64,000 nucleotides of DNA from an uncultured delta proteobacterium (GTDB taxonomy: Bacteria; Desulfobacterota; Binatia; HRBIN30; BPIQ01), in contig CAVXGR010000018.1 of assembly GCA_963761335.1 (NCBI GenBank), positions 320,001 to 384,000 of the forward strand, given 5' to 3'. The stretch's first letter is position 1. Every line of letters starts with the position of its first letter. The position numbers were made by a program. Shown here in pieces: positions 33,001 through 42,000 of this stretch.

Positions 33001-36000
33001 CTCCAGCAAAATGGCGCCGGTCGCCCAGAGAAGATTCCAGTCGAAGCTGCCCTCGACCAATCGCAGGAAGATCAGCAGGGCGGCGCTCATGACGCCCACC
33101 AGCAGGGCCAGCGTCAGGAAGAGGCCGAGGTATTTGCCGAGGAGGAACTGCCAGCGGGCCACCGGCTTGGAGAGAATGTTGAAGATGGTCTTCCGCCCGA
33201 TCTCCTTCTGAAGGAGGTTGACGCCGAGGACGACGGTGATCACTACCCCGAACAGCGAGATGGCGAGCAGGCTGAAGTCCTTGATGAACTTCATCTCGTC
33301 GCCGATCGATGCGGCTCCGAAGACGGCGGAGACGCCCACCATGAGGAATGCGAAGAAGAGGCTCGAGTAGAGCACCTTGTTGCGGATGGCTTCGCGAGCC
33401 GTGTTTCGCGCGATTGCCCAGACGATCACCGGATCACCTCCTCCTCAGATTCAGTCGGCCGCATGGTCTCCCTGAAGGAATGAGATGAAGCGATCTTCCA
33501 GGGAGAGCTTGGTCGGTACCAGCGACTCGACGAACCCTCCGCGCTCCTGCGCGGCGCGCAGAATCGCAGCGACCTGATCCCGGCTGCTCGCCTGCACCGT
33601 CCACATTGCCGGCCCGCCGCCCGCCGGTTGACCGCAGATCGCCTCGATCGCCGAGACCCCGTGAGGCTCGAGACCGCTCACGGCAATGGTGAAGCCGTTT
33701 CCCCGGCGCTGCACGTCGGTCAGGTCAACGAGCTCCCGCAGCTTTCCATTGAGGATCATGCCGACGCGGTCGCACAGCGCCTCCGCATCGGGAAGAATGT
33801 GGGACGAGAAGATCACCGTGGAGCCCTCGTCCTTGAGCGAGCGGATGAGCTCGCGCATCTCTCTGCGACCGGCGGGATCGAGCCCCGACATCGGCTCGTC
33901 GAGGATGACCAGCCGGGGCCGGTGCAGAATCGCCTGGGCGATGCCGACGCGCTGCAGAGTTCCCTTCGACAGCGAGCGTACCGGGGCGCGGAGCTTCGGC
34001 CCCAGATGCAGCCGCTCGACCAGAGCCGCGATTCGCCGTCGCTTCTCGCCGGCATCGAGGCGGCAGAGGTCGGCGTAGAAGTCGAGGATCTCGCCCACCG
34101 ACAGATAATCGTAGAAGTAGGGATGCTCGGGCAGAAAGCCGATCTGCCGGCGCGCCCAGGCGCTGTAGCTCGGCTGTCCCAGGAGTCGCACCTCTCCGCG
34201 CGAGGCGCGCAGCAGACCCAGAATCAGCTTGAACGTCGTCGTCTTGCCGGCCCCGTTGCGCCCGATCAGCCCGAAGATCTCCCCCTCGCGCAGGCTCACC
34301 GTCAGGCCGTCGAGGGCGCAGAAGGGGCGGAACGTCCACTGGTGACGGAAGTACTTGGTCAGGTCTTGCACCTCGAGGAGGTTGCCCATGTCTCAGTCTC
34401 CCCGTTCGTGTCCGAGAATTTCCTTGCGTGTTTCGCTCTGGTACAGCCGCACCGGGTTGTGTCCGCTCGAGGAGGTCACGGCGCCGCTCTGCGGATCGTA
34501 CTGGTAGGCGCCGCCAAAGGGCTCGCGCGGGATTTCACTCAGAAATCCGGCGGCGACCAGAGCGCTCAGGTCGCTGGGGCGGTGGCCGAACTTCTCCGTG
34601 TAGCTCTTCATGGCGCCCTGCAGCTGCTCGAGCTGGTCGGTGAGATCCAGCTGCTTCAGGTGCTCGCGGATCACGGGCCGCAGCCCGGCCCCTTCCGGCG
34701 TATTCATGAGGTTCTCGAGGAAGGCGCGGGCTGTCTTGGTACCGTACTCCGTGGCGTAGAGGATCGTGGCAAAACGGGTGACGAAGGGGGGCGCGCCCGG
34801 CAGCTCGCTGGCGCGCCGCACGTGCTGGATGGCCCGCTGCAAATCCTGCTTGAAGTAGTAGTAGTTGAAGCCGAGAAAGAAGTGCAGCTGCCAGGAGTCC
34901 GGAAAGACGCGCACCCCCTTCTCCAGAAGGGCGATACCGTCGTCCGGCCGCTGCGCTTCCCAGGGAAGAATCACCCCGGCAAAGCGATAGACGTGCATGG
35001 CGCGCGGGTCGAGGTCGGTGACGATTTCGCACATGCGTGCCAGCCAGGGGTACAGATGGTCGCTGTGGTAGTGCTCGCCAAAATAGTTGATGGTGCGAAA
35101 CCAGAGGAAGTCGGCGACGGCGTTCTGGTAGCGCAGGGAGGCCAGACGGAGGAAGTGGATATTGGGCAGATAGACCGGAGCCGCCGCGACCCGCGCCGCG
35201 GCAGGTGTCGCGGTCTGCCGCGAAGCGAAGCTGGCCAGACCGAGTAGCGAGATTACCAGTACCAGAGTCGCTCCCGCACGTGCGAGCCGCTGCAGCCGTG
35301 TCGGCGGCTTCCCCGCCTCGAGTCCGGCCACCTGGGACTTGGAGCGTGAAAACGGTTGTGTCGCTATGCTCTCCATCGCTCCCCAAGTGGAAAAGCAAGG
35401 GCGATGCCATGCCGACAGCAGTTTCGCTTCACATGCGAGTCGGCAGGGGCGGACGGGTCGGCAGACGATGCACCGTCGAATTCGTACGGCCGTGTGTCCG
35501 CCGTTGGCACCGCCTCAGTCGTCCATCGAGGCGTGGCTATCGCCGTTCTGCAGGCCATACTTGCTGAGGCGGTGCCGGAAGGAGCGATAGTTGATACCCA
35601 GCAGGTCGGCGGCGCGTTTCTTTACGCCGCCAGATCGCTCGAGGGCGCGCAGGATGATCGCCTTCTCGTGGTCCGCCAGATATTGGTCGAGGTTGTCGAA
35701 CTGGGTCTGCATGCCGTTGATCGGCGGCGCCGGAACCGCGGGCTTGGCAGTGTCCGGCGCGCTTGCGATCTCGACGGCAGGCTGCGGTGTTGGATCCAGG
35801 TGAGGCGCCTGGAACAGGTGTGCCGGCAGATGGGCCTCGTGAACGGTTTCCCCGTCGCTCATGGTGACGGCGTGCTCGATGATGTTGGCGAGCTCGCGCA
35901 CGTTGCCGGGATAGCCATGGTCGAGGAGTCGCCGCGCCGCCGGCACCGATACGCGGACGACGCGCTTGCGGTGCAGCTCGGAGAAGTCCCGGAGGAAATG

Positions 36001-39000: not shown

Positions 39001-42000
39001 GAGCGTCGGCGCTGTACGAAAGCGTCGGTCGACGGATCACCGCCGATCCACCGGCGGCGTACGGTCGCGTGTGTCGTCGAAGCTTCACGAGCTTCCCTCC
39101 CTGGAAGCGAAAGAAGAGAGTCGCCGCCGGCCCGCCTAATCGGGCATGGTGACGCGCACGACCTCTTCCATGGTCGTCAGCCCTTCTCGGAGCTTCTGCA
39201 AGCCGCTCAACCTCAGGCTCCTCATTCCTCCCGCCATGGCTCCCTTCTTGATGTCCGGGGCCGAGGCGCCGGTGAGCACCAGCTCGCGCAGGTCGTCGGT
39301 CATCGGCATGACCTCGTAGAGGGCGATACGGCCCCGATAACCGGTGCCGTTGCACTGCGGGCAGCCGGCGCCGTGGAAGGGCGTGAAGGTGCCGATCTCC
39401 TCGCGCGGAATGCCGATGTCGATCAGTGCCTGCGGCGGCAGCTCTGCCGGCGCCTTGCACCCCTGGCAAATGACCCGCGCCAGGCGTTGCGCCAGAATCA
39501 GGTTCACCGACGAGGCGACGAGAAACGGCTCGATGCCCATGTTGAGCAGGCGGTTGACGGTCGACGGTGCGTCGTTCGTGTGCAGCGTGCTCAGCACCAG
39601 GTGACCGGTGAGGGCCGCCTTGATGGAGATCTCCGCCGTCTCGAAGTCGCGGACCTCGCCGACCATGATGATGTCCGGGTCCTGCCGAAGAAAGGCGCGC
39701 AGGGCGTTGGCGAAGTTGAGGCCGATGTCGTCGTGGATCTGCACCTGGTTGATGCCGACCAGATTGAACTCGACCGGATCCTCCGCAGTGGAGATGTTGG
39801 TGGCGATCTTGTTGAGCTCCGAGAGCGCCGAGTACAGCGTCGTCGTCTTGCCGCTGCCGGTGGGGCCGGTGACCAGCACCATGCCGTAGGGCTTGTAGAT
39901 GGATTCCTTGAAGTCGCGCAGCGCGCTCTCTTCGAAGCCGAGCTTGGTCATGTCGAGCTGCAGGTTCGACTTGTCGAGCAGGCGCAGGACGATCTTCTCG
40001 CCGAAGATGGTCGGCAGCACCGAGACGCGGAAGTCCATCTCCTGCCCGGGGCCGAACTTGAGCTTGATGCGTCCGTCCTGAGGCAGGCGGCGTTCGGCAA
40101 TGTCCATGTTCGACATCACTTTGACACGCGATGTGATGGCGTTCTTGAGCTTCAGCGGCGGCTTCATGATCTCTTCGAGAACGCCGTCGCAGCGGAAGCG
40201 GACGCGGAACATCTTCTCGAAGGGCTCGAGATGGATATCGCTGCAACGCCTCTTGATGGCGTTGGTGAGGATGGCGTTCACCAGGCGCACGACGGGGGCG
40301 TCTTCGGTCGCCCTCTCGAGCTCCTTGAGATCGACCTCCTCCTCCTGCTGGACCAGCTCGAAATCGTCGCTCTCGAGCTCGGTGAGCACCTGGTCGTAGT
40401 TGGAGTGCTCGTCATAGTGCGCCTCGATCGCCTTCTGGATCGTCGAGACCGAGCCGACCGCGACCTTCACGTCGTATCCGGTGATGAATTTCACCTCGTT
40501 GAGCGCCACGAAGTTCGACGGATCCGACATCGCCACCGTCAGAGTCGACCCCGTCTGCCCGATGGGGATCATCTCGTGTCGGTGCACCAGGGTGGCCGGT
40601 ATGACCCGCAGGATCTCGGTGGGCAGGTCCATGCCCGAAGGGTCGACCAGGGGCAGCCGATATTCGCGCTGCAGGAAGGTGGTCAGGTCATCCTCGTTGA
40701 TGAAGCCGAGACCGACGAGAATGGAGCTGAGGCCTCCTCCTTCCTCCTTCTGTTTGTCGGCAGCGGTCCCCAGCTGCGCGGCAGTGAGGTGGCCGCGCTT
40801 GACCAAGATTTCGCCCAGTCGGCTGCTCATAGACATGCTAAGCCTATAACACGTTTCGCGCCAGAGGCGGTGGGCTCGTCGGCTCTGGCTATCGGCTCAG
40901 TGAGCGGTGCGTTGTTGCGCCCGTAGCGCACCTGCCATGACATCTAATGGAGGACGCCGTCCCGTCCACAGAGTGAATGCTGCGGCCCCCTGGTGCAGGA
41001 GCATGGAGGTGCCGTCGAGGGCAGGCCGCTCATAGCGTTTAGCCTGCTGCAGAAAGTCGGTGCGGCGCCCGTAGATGAGGTCGTAGAAGAGGCAGTGAGG
41101 GGGGGTGGCGGAGTATTCGAGAAGGGGAAACTTCTCGCCGTGGAGACCGATCGACGTGGCGTTGACGATGAGGTCGATGGTCGTCAACGCCTTGACGTTC
41201 GTCAGTCGGTCGAGGTCGGCGGTACGCACCTCGATTTCCTGCCCGGCGAAGTGGCGCTGCAAGGCGCGTTTTCGCCCGGCGCTGCGGTTGACGACGCAGA
41301 TCTCGACGGCGCCGCCGCGGTGCAGCCCGGCGACTGCCGCCCGCCCGGCGCCTCCGGCGCCGACCACCAGGGCGCGGGCGCCGCGCAGGCGCCCACCGGC
41401 GTCGCGCAGGCCGCGAACGAAACCCGTGACGTCGGTATTCTCGCCGACGAGGCGGTCGCGGCGCCAGTAGATGGTGTTCACGGCGGCGATCAGGCGGGCG
41501 TTCTCGTCGAGGTCATCGAGATGGCCGACGACCCTCTCCTTGTGCGGAACGGTGACGTTCAGGCCCGCCAGGCGCAGGGCTCGCATGGCGCGCACGGCCC
41601 CCCCGGCCTGGCCCGCAGCGACGTGGAGCGGGACATAGACGTAGTCGAGCCCGAGCGCGGCGAAGGCGGCGTTGTGCATCGCCGGCGAGAGAGAATGGGC
41701 GATCGGGTCGCCGATGATGCCGACCACCCTTGTCTTGCCGGAGATGTGCATCGGACCGGACCGGCCGCGCCGCCGGGCCCCCCGCGCTACGCGGTGCTCG
41801 ACTCGCTGCTGCTGCTGAGGGCGGCGTGCGCGGCGGCGAGCCGTGCCACCGGCACGCGAAAAGGCGAACAGGAGACGTAGTCGAGCCCTGCCTCATGACA
41901 GAAGGTGACGGATTTCGGGTCGCCGCCGTGCTCGCCGCAGATTCCCAGCTTGATCTCGGCGCGCGCCTTCCGCCCCTTTTCCACCGCCATGCGGATCAGC

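What a model noticed while it worked through the whole genome (the two positions that open the first line are those of the whole stretch)
35515..40836. One-polypeptide PilS-PilR: a membrane-anchored sigma54 activator without kinase or receiver domains in the type IV pilus [...]
In the pilB-pilC operon the place of the PilS/PilR two-component pair is taken by one 699-aa protein (g04009, C18:355515-357614) that joins the six-helix PilS membrane sensor domain (res 15-193) and a PAS domain (214-320) directly to a sigma54-activator AAA+ module (356-605) and an HTH_8 DNA-binding domain (646-686). The histidine-kinase core and the receiver domain, i.e. the whole phosphorelay, are missing. It is the only 6TM_PilS protein of the genome and the fusion is conserved in many Binatia.
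Evidence so far: Pfam: 6TM_PilS 5.8e-15, PAS_9 1.9e-8, Sigma54_activat 6.7e-72, AAA_lid_14 4.8e-24, HTH_8 2e-12; no HisKA, HATPase_c or Response_reg. Order pilB (g04011) - pilC (g04010) - g04009, the last two abutting at 357614. Full-length matches (query 2-10 to 689-693, open frames 683-737 aa) in 8 of 16 other Binatia genomes from 8 families, a ninth to residue 638; 7 of 16 no match at E<=1e-100. ESM Atlas: nearest cluster (score 1.00, 68 members, 695 aa) auto-named 'PilS-like transmembrane/AAA...', mostly Binatota; second (0.99, 54 members, 677 aa) mostly Bdellovibrionota. RpoN present (g02145); -24/-12-type motifs lie 47-169 nt upstream of three prepilin-type genes g01879, g02510, g03054.
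(Added by a program. Inside this text positions count along the whole contig: contig position 320,001 is position 1 of the stretch shown here. "Call 12" and the like, gene names such as g00115 and contig names such as C1 are that model's own, and its searches are not shown. The text may have been shortened before it was handed on; [...] marks where a part breaks off. The agent that wrote the report below was given it as the finding of a first reader that could run no searches.)

Follow-up and report, generated by a model that had tools for sequence, protein, structure and literature searches.

The report
Membrane-bound PilS-PilR fusion pilus regulator
One membrane protein joins the sensing half of the pilus kinase PilS directly to the gene-activating half of its partner PilR, with the whole phosphate relay missing, which looks like an undescribed way to control pilus-subunit genes in an uncultured bacterial lineage.

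Summary
Window 35515-37614 (-) encodes a 699-aa protein made of a 6TM PilS-type membrane domain, PAS, a sigma54 AAA+ module and HTH_8. It has no HisKA, HATPase_c or receiver domain. Its start overlaps the pilC stop.

The fusion is not an assembly artefact. The same architecture occurs in 26 independent database proteins. One continuous match (query residue <=10 to >=604) occurs in 42 of 121 genomes of its class. It also occurs in 3 genomes of other classes.

Both halves are orthologous to the canonical pair:
- The sensor half matches PilS kinases of the phylum and keeps their invariant membrane residues.
- The output half groups with PilS-adjacent PilR, apart from all 17 other activators of this genome that were aligned.
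- The gene sits in the pilS-pilR slot between pilC and pilA.

In this genome pilA has left that slot. Two distant pilin genes carry sigma54 promoters with PilR-type GTCA boxes.

Best reading is a one-component, membrane-integral pilin-gene activator. Pilin sensing and activity while membrane-bound are inferred only. Six literature searches found no description. The scan had noted the same family twice in other genomes.

The parts
39136..40836 (-). pilB, type IVa pilus assembly ATPase (566 aa)
   Evidence: TIGR02538 at 778.4 bits against a cut-off of 675.65. Pfam T2SSE and MshEN.
37614..38867 (-). pilC, platform protein. The ORF is 417 aa from a TTG. The likely true start is the ATG at residue 12, 'MPHFRW' (my reading of the translation).
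   Evidence: Pfam T2SSF, E 7.9e-69. Best NCBIfam hit is the PilC model NF052606, 571.8 bits, which is under its equivalog cut-off of 700. Translation.
35515..37614 (-). PilS-PilR fusion gene (699 aa). Its ATG overlaps the pilC stop by one base.
   Evidence: Conserved full length in 42 of 121 class genomes.
37036..37572 (-). Six-helix PilS-type membrane sensor domain (residues 15-193). Topology N-in, C-in. Periplasmic loops of only 10, 6 and 17 residues.
   Evidence: Pfam PF25323, 54.3 bits. Hydropathy and positive-inside count. AF2 helices at pLDDT 82-93. R21, Q82, D86, S102, Y108 and Y135 are shared with 16 of 16 canonical PilS.
36655..36975 (-). PAS domain (residues 214-320). It is reached from TM6 by one continuous predicted helix (residues 160-215).
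   Evidence: Pfam PAS_9 and PAS_4. AF2 secondary structure.
36550..36654 (-). Junction linker (residues 321-355): a predicted helix 317-343, then an acidic stretch of low confidence. This is where the kinase core and the receiver are missing.
   Evidence: Junction alignment with canonical PilS and PilR. AF2 pLDDT below 50 at residues 340-347.
35800..36549 (-). Sigma54-activator AAA+ module with lid (residues 356-605). Motifs: Walker A GESGTGKE at 383, ESELFGH at 421, GAFTGA at 430, Walker B VFLDE at 451, REDLFYR at 509.
   Evidence: Pfam Sigma54_activat E 2e-71 and AAA_lid_14. Motif scan.
35557..35679 (-). Fis-type HTH_8 DNA-binding domain (residues 646-686). The recognition helix reads NYRSFRHRL, a PilR-type signature.
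   Evidence: Pfam HTH_8, E 4.1e-12. R677, S678 and R680 are shared with canonical PilR in 9, 12 and 12 of 12. The 17 other activators of this genome mostly differ, with T at position 678 in 10 of 17.
35394..35409 (-). Sigma54 -24/-12 promoter TGGCATcgcccTTGCT. It lies 106 nt after the fusion stop and 17-18 nt before the next ATG.
   Evidence: Sequence. It is one of 13 genome-wide matches to TGGCAY-N5-TTGCW, against 0-5 at wrong spacings. A site scoring 13 or more lies in the matching position in 15 of 20 related loci, this window included.
34393..35376 (-). 327-aa membrane-anchored protein with no family hit. It is conserved after the fusion, or after pilA, in relatives. By position it resembles Myxococcus PilG; that name is recalled, not tested.
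   Evidence: No Pfam or NCBIfam hit. Homologue in the same position in 9 of 19 related loci.
32662..34389 (-). ABC transporter pair: ATPase 33451-34389 and ABC-2 permease 32662-33429. By position they resemble Myxococcus PilH and PilI (names recalled).
   Evidence: Pfam ABC_tran and ABC2_membrane_2. Best NCBIfam hit is GldA-type, under its cut-off.
27504..28283 (-). pilD, prepilin peptidase. It closes the same-strand cluster, after three ORFs with no family hit (28284-32644).
   Evidence: Pfam A24_N_bact and Peptidase_A24.

Best explanation
The gene encodes a one-component version of the PilS-PilR pilin regulator.

Origin (inferred). An in-frame deletion across the adjacent pilS and pilR genes removed the histidine-kinase core and the receiver domain. 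What remains is the PilS intramembrane sensor (six helices plus PAS) joined covalently to the PilR output (sigma54-type AAA+ ATPase plus Fis-type HTH).

Function (inferred).
1. The protein sits in the inner membrane with both ends in the cytoplasm.
2. It binds GTCA-type PilR boxes upstream of pilin genes.
3. When the sensor allows, it assembles into the AAA+ ring that opens sigma54 promoters.
4. The PAS dimer with its helical linker takes over the receiver's job of holding the AAA+ domains apart or letting them assemble. This is the NtrC1/DctD-type logic, known from those families (recalled).
5. By analogy with PilS of Pseudomonas aeruginosa, the signal is most likely the pool of pilin subunits in the membrane: a full pool switches it off, a depleted pool switches it on.

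Targets in this genome: the two distant pilin genes on contigs C12 and C13, and possibly the adjacent operon (327-aa protein, ABC transporter, through to pilD).

Shown here by computation: the architecture, the topology, the orthology of both halves, intact ATPase and sigma54-contact motifs, synteny, and promoters with boxes.

Inferred only: pilin as the signal, the direction of the switch, ring assembly, and activity without release from the membrane.
For: Architecture and intact motifs.

Topology: N-in, six helices, periplasmic loops of 17 residues or fewer, so it is an intramembrane sensor.

The sensor half is PilS:
- 25-35% identity over query residues 9-331 to open frames of 540-600 aa in 165 of 201 phylum genomes. 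Those examined carry HisKA and HATPase_c (P0183 and P0161).
- R21, Q82, D86, S102, Y108 and Y135 are invariant in 16 of 16 canonical PilS and in every fusion row with a residue at that column.

The output half is PilR:
- It falls in one group (SH-aLRT 91) with 12 PilS-adjacent activators. All 17 aligned paralogues of this genome fall outside that group.
- The HTH recognition helix carries the PilR signature.

The junction is PAS end to AAA+ start.

Position and distribution:
- pilC, fusion, pilin in 13 of 19 related loci, against pilC, pilS, pilR, pilin in canonical loci.
- A sigma54 site scoring 13 or more lies after the fusion stop in 15 of 20 loci.
- TTGTCA lies within 220 nt upstream of that site in 11 of 12 loci. 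Like boxes occur at pilin promoters in 4 canonical PilS-PilR loci (L088, L094, L097, L098) and in the out-of-class fusion locus L099.
- In this genome, GTCA pairs spaced 21-23 nt and followed by a sigma54 site scoring 14 or more occur at only 3 places. All 3 lie upstream of the C12 and C13 pilin genes.
- RpoN is present.
- Class tally: 37 genomes have both the sensor and PilB over its cut-off, 8 the sensor only, 16 PilB only, and 60 neither. Related genomes are not independent samples.
- No canonical PilS was found in 121 class genomes.

Background: pilin autoregulation through the PilS membrane segments is stated in the introduction of PMC6058289 (passages read).
Against: - There are no experimental data of any kind.
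- The sigma54 promoter next to the gene in this window has no GTCA/TGAC box within 220 nt upstream, so its link to the fusion is unproven.
- The boxes at C12 and C13 were formulated after I had seen those promoters (post hoc), although the core motif came from other genomes.
- The linker between PAS and AAA+ is acidic and predicted disordered in this protein. How a signal would cross it is unclear.
- The Pfam 6TM_PilS family also holds sensors of other signals, RegB and the ammonia sensor GrtK (PMC12918730, passages read). The domain alone therefore does not imply pilin sensing.
- My searches found no precedent for an AAA+ ring of six protomers, each with six membrane helices, working on DNA.
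- 16 class genomes with PilB over its cut-off lack the full sensor.
- The AF2 pTM is 0.44, so the arrangement of the domains is not modelled.
Confidence: 0.6

Rival explanations
1. The membrane form is a precursor or a store. The active regulator is a soluble PAS-AAA+-HTH fragment, released by regulated proteolysis between TM6 and PAS or made from an internal start. It then acts like an ordinary cytoplasmic single-component activator.
For: A hexameric AAA+ ring on DNA is hard to reconcile with 36 membrane helices. Soluble PAS-AAA+-HTH activators are a common architecture: the Atlas neighbours in rows 7-8, and one 570-aa relative without the 6TM domain, P0029.
Against: The continuous, confidently predicted helix from TM6 into PAS (residues 160-215) and the invariant intramembrane residues argue that the membrane domain is under selection as a signalling part. 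No conserved cleavage motif or conserved internal start was looked for or seen. P0029 may be a fragment.
Confidence: 0.2
2. The architecture and the target genes are as described, but the six-helix domain senses something other than pilin. Candidates are redox or quinone state as in RegB, ammonia as in GrtK, or a general membrane or envelope property.
For: PF25323 covers PilS, RegB and GrtK (PMC12918730, passages). A PAS domain could bind its own ligand. In this genome the pilin gene is no longer beside the regulator.
Against: The sensor half is closest to PilS kinases that sit in pil clusters next to pilR and pilA, and it keeps their invariant intramembrane residues. The gene co-occurs with PilB.
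Confidence: 0.17
3. The fusion is an artefact (an indel or a mis-join in the assembly), or a decaying pseudogene of a pilS-pilR pair.
For: One relative carries an in-frame TAA (G211).
Against: The same junction and an open frame occur in 26 proteins from JGI, NCBI, ENA and Logan assemblies. They also occur in 42 of 121 class genomes, in 10 full-length representatives at 50% clustering and in 3 genomes of other classes. All catalytic motifs are intact. GC3 is 0.88, like its neighbours.
Confidence: 0.02

Closest known systems
PilS-PilR two-component system of type IVa pili (Pseudomonas aeruginosa, Geobacter, Myxococcus)
   Same: - The same six-helix sensor plus PAS, with the same invariant intramembrane residues.
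- The same sigma54 AAA+ and Fis-type HTH, with a PilR-type recognition helix.
- The same slot between pilC and pilA.
- Sigma54 pilin promoters with GTC-containing upstream boxes. PMC6058289 names TGT-N11-AGA and GTCT elements as PilR hallmarks (passage).
   Different: There is no DHp/HisKA domain, no HATPase_c and no receiver domain, hence no phosphotransfer and no kinase/phosphatase switch. Sensor and output are one polypeptide, so the DNA-binding activator is itself a polytopic membrane protein.
NtrC1/DctD-type and PAS-containing single-component sigma54 activators (bEBPs)
   Same: An N-terminal dimeric regulatory domain is joined by a helical linker to the AAA+ module. The GAFTGA loop and the C-terminal HTH_8 are present. 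The out-of-class fusions keep a PilR-like helical linker of the form 'RY.F..[IV]IGKS'.
   Different: Those proteins are soluble. I know of none with an integral membrane sensor, and none turned up in the literature searches. Control by a repressing N-terminal dimer is established for NtrC1 and DctD (recalled), not for this protein.
Membrane-integrated one-component transcription activators (ToxR, CadC)
   Same: The sensor and the DNA-binding activator are one membrane protein, so the target DNA has to come to the membrane. CadC target search is the subject of PMC7888679 and PMC6320335 (search listing and abstract starts only).
   Different: Those are single-pass proteins with OmpR-type winged-helix domains acting at sigma70 promoters. 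This one has six helices and an ATP-driven AAA+ ring, and it acts at sigma54 promoters from an enhancer.
Other PF25323 (6TM_PilS) sensor kinases: RegB, GrtK
   Same: The fold family of the membrane domain.
   Different: They are kinases with other signals (GrtK: ammonia, PMC12918730) and are not found in pil clusters. This genome's own borderline member on contig C5 has HisKA and HATPase_c and no PAS.

Membership tests
PilS sensor histidine kinase | Six-helix PilS-type membrane domain | tested here: met
   PF25323 at 54.3 bits against a cut-off of 27. Six hydrophobic segments, N-in and C-in.
PilS sensor histidine kinase | Cytoplasmic PAS domain after TM6, homologous to that of PilS | tested here: met
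   PAS_9 and PAS_4. The alignment to canonical PilS runs through query residue 331.
PilS sensor histidine kinase | DHp/HisKA domain with the phospho-acceptor histidine | tested here: not met
   No HisKA hit at E <= 0.01. The alignment shows the PilS 'AHEIRNPL' block replaced by the PilR AAA+ start.
PilS sensor histidine kinase | HATPase_c catalytic domain | tested here: not met
   No hit.
PilS sensor histidine kinase | Gene placed in the pil cluster after pilC, before pilR or pilA | tested here: met
PilR (NtrC-family response regulator) | N-terminal receiver domain with the phospho-acceptor aspartate | tested here: not met
   No Response_reg hit. Homology to PilR starts at about PilR residue 127-148.
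PilR (NtrC-family response regulator) | Sigma54 AAA+ module and HTH_8 orthologous to PilR rather than to other activators | tested here: met
   Tree: fusions plus PilS-adjacent activators form one group (SH-aLRT 91, quick search), and this genome's 17 aligned paralogues lie outside it. Recognition-helix signature. No NCBIfam equivalog passes its cut-off.
PilR (NtrC-family response regulator) | Binds upstream boxes of a sigma54 pilin promoter | tested here: inconclusive
   Boxes and promoters are present at pilin genes. Binding itself cannot be tested with these tools.
Bacterial enhancer-binding protein (sigma54 activator) | Walker A and B, GAFTGA sigma54-contact loop, arginine-finger region | tested here: met
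   GESGTGKE at 383, VFLDE at 451, GAFTGA at 430, REDLFYR at 509. Sigma54_activat, E 2e-71.
Bacterial enhancer-binding protein (sigma54 activator) | The host has RpoN and -24/-12 promoters | tested here: met
   RpoN. 13 strict promoter matches against 0-5 at wrong spacings.
Bacterial enhancer-binding protein (sigma54 activator) | ATP-dependent hexamer that remodels the closed complex | not testable with these tools
   Needs biochemistry.
Membrane-integrated one-component regulators (ToxR/CadC type) | Single-pass anchor with an OmpR-type winged-helix domain | tested here: not met
   Six helices and a Fis-type HTH. This is a functional analogy only.

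The most novel reading that the evidence does not exclude
A polytopic inner-membrane protein is itself the ATP-driven sigma54 activator. 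Three membrane-embedded dimers would assemble into an AAA+ ring on enhancer DNA that is held at the membrane, and this would be switched directly by pilin subunits binding inside the bilayer.

The phosphorelay of a classic two-component system would then be dispensable. It would have been deleted in one step across adjacent genes, probably more than once: the AU test rejects a single clade of all fusions at p = 0.032.

This would be the first membrane-integral enhancer-binding protein. It would also be a natural experiment on what phosphotransfer adds to signalling.
Probability: 0.4. Interest if true: 0.85.

Novelty: new variant of a known kind. Interest (0 to 1): 0.68.

Why it matters
PilS-PilR is the textbook regulator of type IV pilin supply. 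Enhancer-binding proteins are treated as soluble ATPases that loop DNA to sigma54 polymerase.

Here a whole lineage has replaced the pair with one membrane protein: 42 full-length matches and 45 strong sensor matches among 121 genomes of its class, and no canonical PilS found there. This raises three points.
- The kinase, phosphatase and receiver steps are not needed for this circuit.
- It poses a concrete mechanical problem: how an AAA+ ring with 36 membrane helices assembles on DNA.
- It offers a minimal, genetically simple system (one gene, one promoter, one membrane ligand) to test intramembrane pilin sensing and the signal path from PAS to AAA+.

The shared junction in distant lineages suggests an easy and perhaps repeated evolutionary route from two-component to one-component signalling.

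Tried and rejected
- Complex prediction of the membrane domain (residues 1-215, alignment A1) with the mature C13 pilin (P0032, residues 9-125) gave no answer: score 0.04 against a mark of 0.32, and the controls were not run. This is evidence neither way.
- The search for related loci on genome contigs failed twice for lack of a conserved stretch in alignments A2 and A3. With the single N-terminal protein it returned one irrelevant 65-residue hit. No organism names were gained that way.
- The taxon name 'Binatia' therefore rests only on source names (one record named 'Candidatus Binatia bacterium') and on the Atlas cluster (commonest phylum Candidatus Binatota).
- The PNAS 2016 paper on PilS-pilin interaction (PMC4889343) is not held. 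What I say about it comes from the introduction of PMC6058289 and from recall.
- Sequencing runs: no run held half of the sampled words. In the metatranscriptome library X3 most cover lies on the conserved AAA+ part at 90-95% likeness, which probably comes from other organisms. One 471-nt contig (36377-36847, 9 differences) spans the PAS-AAA+ junction. An RNA library can contain DNA, so this is not counted as expression.
- A PilR box at the window's own sigma54 promoter was sought and not found.
- The AU test on the sensor half alone did not reject a single origin (p = 0.062).
- No sigma70-like promoter and no convincing terminator lies between pilB and the 327-aa gene. The scan found 0 promoters and 3 terminator-like sites, against 3.1 in shuffles.
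- I considered a fold search of the AF2 model and dropped it, because all domains already have family assignments.

Full report
**What is there**

On the minus strand the window carries aroE (40897-41751), pilB (39136-40836), pilC (37614-38867) and a 699-aa ORF (35515-37614).
- PilB passes the NCBIfam equivalog cut-off for the type IVa assembly ATPase (778 against 676 bits).
- The pilC stop TGA and the ATG of the 699-aa ORF share one base, which fits translational coupling.
- Pfam finds 6TM_PilS (residues 15-193, 54 bits, cut-off 27), PAS (214-320), Sigma54_activat (356-522, E 2e-71), AAA_lid_14 (527-605) and HTH_8 (646-686).
- Pfam finds no HisKA, HATPase_c or Response_reg at E <= 0.01.
- Walker A, ESELFGH, GAFTGA, Walker B and the arginine-finger block are all intact.

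Hydropathy and the positive-inside count give six helices with both termini in the cytoplasm. The periplasmic loops are only 10, 6 and 17 residues long, so this is an intramembrane sensor without a periplasmic domain.

An AlphaFold2 model built on 26 homologues has mean pLDDT 78 and pTM 0.44.
- It predicts the helices confidently.
- One continuous helix runs from TM6 into the PAS domain (residues 160-215).
- A helix follows PAS (317-343).
- Low-confidence stretches lie at 340-347 and at 605-639, between the AAA+ lid and the HTH.
- The relative placement of the domains is not resolved.

**Not an artefact**

- A word-indexed search with the N-terminal 345 residues returned 26 proteins, besides the query itself, with the same Pfam architecture. 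They have 41-56% identity in that region and come from JGI, NCBI, ENA and Logan assemblies. NCBI names them 'sigma 54-interacting transcriptional regulator'; JGI names them 'PilR'. One 570-aa form lacks the membrane domain, and one is a canonical 571-aa PilS.
- In 121 genomes of the same class, this one included, 42 have one continuous match from query residue <=10 to >=604. One more reaches residue 463. Two start at residues 112-117.
- An exhaustive HMMER search of 1.84 billion 50%-identity representatives with the sensor half gave 3274 hits at E <= 1e-3 and 39 at E <= 1e-30. Of the best 150 I scanned 19, picked by length. Ten full-length ones have the fusion architecture and one is a truncated fusion. 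Most of the rest of the 150 have PilS-like lengths; of these I scanned three: P0183 and P0161 carry HisKA and HATPase_c, P0112 carries HisKA without HATPase_c.
- Taxon names come only from source labels (one record named 'Candidatus Binatia bacterium') and from the Atlas cluster (68 members, commonest phylum Candidatus Binatota).
- The class tallies include G282, which is flagged unpublished.

**Both halves are orthologous to the canonical pair**

Sensor half:
- It matches open frames of PilS length in 165 of 201 genomes sampled across the phylum, over query residues of about 9-331, at 25-35% identity.
- In an alignment with 16 such PilS proteins, R21 (TM1), Q82 and D86 (TM3), S102, Y108 and Y135 are invariant in all 16 PilS and in every fusion row with a residue at that column; G123 is in 14 of the 16 PilS and in all fusion rows.

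Output half:
- It is 43-50% identical to activators encoded next to those PilS genes. The best of about 19 other activator hits in this genome is 45% identical over a comparable length; four hits with shorter alignments reach 49-53%.
- In a maximum-likelihood tree of the AAA+/HTH region (52 rows, quick search), the 20 class fusions form one group (SH-aLRT 82). That group is sister to a group of 12 PilS-adjacent activators and 3 out-of-class fusions (93). Together (91) they exclude all 17 aligned paralogues of this genome.
- The HTH recognition helix shares R677, S678 and R680 with canonical PilR (9, 12 and 12 of 12). The paralogues mostly differ.

Junction: an alignment across the junction shows PilS sequence up to the end of PAS ('QD[VL]T..'), about 25-30 linker residues, then PilR sequence from 'F.G.[IV]G.S'. 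Exactly the kinase core and the receiver are missing.

**Position**

- In 19 of the 20 fetched loci of the class the fusion ORF was recognised. The shared order is ppdK, aroE, pilB, (pilT), pilC, fusion, and then a pilin gene in 13 loci. No pilin follows in the 6 loci of families f1 and f86, nor in this window.
- Canonical loci elsewhere in the phylum read pilC, pilS, pilR, pilin, or pilR, pilS, pilin.
- Three genomes outside the class also have pilC followed by the fusion (669-679 aa), one of them followed by a pilin gene.
- Within the class, a search with the sensor half found 45 of 121 genomes with a strong match (E <= 1.6e-24). The open frames are 625 aa or longer in 43; the other two (368 and 588 aa) are shorter frames that I did not examine further. 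All other matches are partial at E >= 3e-12, so no canonical PilS was found there with this query.
- PilB over its cut-off occurs in 53 of 121 genomes. The cross-tally is 37 with sensor and PilB, 8 with sensor only, 16 with PilB only and 60 with neither. For at least 4 of the 8 sensor-only genomes, PilB is cut by a contig end or its contig starts just before the fusion gene. Related genomes are not independent, so I attach no p-value.

**Targets**

- A sigma54-type site scoring 13 or more lies 56-292 nt after the fusion stop in 15 of 20 loci, the window included.
- I took the 12 loci outside f1 and f86 that have such a site. In 11 of them TTGTCA (consensus about AATTTGTCAC, often with a TGACG about 20 nt away) occurs within 220 nt upstream of the site.
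- Like boxes (GTGACAA / TTGTCAC) precede sigma54 pilin promoters in canonical PilS-PilR loci.
- In this genome four prepilin genes lie on other contigs.
  - C13 has TGGCACGCTGGCTGCT. A score that high is expected about 0.001 times per 300 nt.
  - C12 has TGGTACGACGGTTGCT, expected about 0.004 times per 300 nt.
  - C21 has only a weak site, and C11 has none.
- Upstream of the C12 and C13 promoters lie [CT]GTCA repeats spaced 22 nt apart. Genome-wide, such pairs at 21-23 nt followed by a sigma54 site scoring 14 or more occur at 3 places, all at these two promoters. The exact pattern was set after I had seen them, so treat this as supportive, not as a blind test.
- The window's own site, TGGCATcgcccTTGCT (35394-35409), is one of 13 strict genome-wide matches, against 0-5 at wrong spacings. 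It sits where the pilA promoter sits in relatives. It now directly precedes a 327-aa membrane protein, an ABC ATPase and permease, three ORFs without family hits, and pilD.
- That site has no GTCA/TGAC box within 220 nt upstream. Whether the fusion drives it is open.

**Origins**

The class fusions are one clade in the sensor tree (98), in the output tree (82) and in the concatenated tree (99). The three out-of-class fusions sit among canonical pairs. Forcing all 23 fusions into one clade costs 17.3 log-likelihood units with the sensor half alone (p-AU 0.062) and 21.7 units with both halves (p-AU 0.032). This is marginal evidence for at least two independent deletions. The trees are unrooted and come from quick searches.

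**Mechanism**

Most likely the protein is a membrane-integral, one-component PilSR.
- PilS of P. aeruginosa is stated to interact directly with PilA through its six membrane segments for pilin autoregulation (PMC6058289, introduction passage). The conserved intramembrane residues suggest the same input here.
- The PAS domain and linker would replace the receiver as the gate on AAA+ assembly. The out-of-class fusions even keep the PilR-type helical linker.
- The class fusions have a longer lid-to-HTH linker: median 41 residues, 49 in this protein, against 29.5 in 12 canonical PilR. That might help a tethered protein reach DNA, but the out-of-class fusions lack the extension (24-30 residues).
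- Where the pilin gene follows the regulator gene, membrane insertion of PilC, the regulator and the pilin during translation would keep the locus at the membrane. This is my inference. In this genome that proximity has been lost.

**Literature**

Six full-text searches found no description of a membrane-anchored sigma54 activator or of a PilS-PilR fusion.
- I read passages of PMC4641369, where 'transmembrane' refers to transport only, and of PMC6058289 and PMC12918730.
- I saw only listings and abstract starts for the CadC papers.
- Subscription journals are largely outside this library, so a prior description cannot be excluded.
- The scan's own notes record the same family twice in other genomes.

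**Verdict**

This is a new variant of a known system, of real interest to people who work on sigma54, two-component signalling and pili. The step that would make it remarkable, activity while membrane-bound, is untested.

Noticed in passing
window 35394-35409 (-) and 35410-35514: The sigma54 promoter after the fusion gene sits where relatives have the pilA promoter. The pilin gene and the TTGTCAC box are both gone here, so the promoter now directly precedes the 327-aa protein and ABC transporter genes. The same holds in the two other genomes of family f1 (L063, L071). In family f86 the promoter is absent too and the two genes nearly abut.
   Followed up: partly
G000 contig C5:166110-168341 (L002:790-3021, -): A 743-aa histidine kinase with two consecutive six-helix-like membrane blocks, HisKA and HATPase_c, no PAS, next to a LysR-type gene. 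It is a borderline 6TM_PilS member (28.4 bits six-frame, 24.0 bits as protein, cut-off 27).
   Followed up: partly
window 23467-23907 (-): A 146-aa GspH/FimT-type minor pilin-like ORF (Pfam GspH, E 5e-7) with a prepilin-like N-terminus. It is overlapped by plus-strand ORFs that my crude gene caller preferred.
   Followed up: no
window 20496-22639 (-): A receiver-domain protein (270-aa ORF, Response_reg at residues 146-254) and a 411-aa protein with no family hit. Homologues of both follow pilD in L081, and of the receiver protein also in L068 and L082, so they may belong to the pilus cluster.
   Followed up: no
window 57487-58281 (+): A further T2SSE/PilB-like ATPase match (TIGR01420 at 177.9 bits, under its cut-off) in an 866-aa open frame. 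This is a second secretion-type ATPase in the window.
   Followed up: no
window 37614-40836: pilT is missing between pilB and pilC here, although most related loci have a pilT-like gene of about 370 aa there. Five PilT/PilU-family genes over the cut-off lie elsewhere in the genome.
   Followed up: partly
G219:C11:587768-589417 and G237:C9:78315-79973 (family f91, genus g155): Shorter relatives (open frames 613-618 aa) match only from query residue 112-117 onward, so they appear to lack the first three membrane helices. They lie about 2.5 kb downstream of a PilB gene that is over its cut-off.
   Followed up: no
P0036 (4799 aa), P0051 (3417 aa), P0060 (3100 aa): Giant proteins with 12-28 separate matches to the PAS part of the query. 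They are PAS-repeat proteins unrelated to the finding.
   Followed up: no
L112 (C13) and L115 (C11) of G000: Two paralogous short pilins (125 and 136 aa) with near-identical N-terminal halves and C-terminal ends. Only the C13 copy has a sigma54 promoter with GTCA boxes. The C11 copy has neither.
   Followed up: partly
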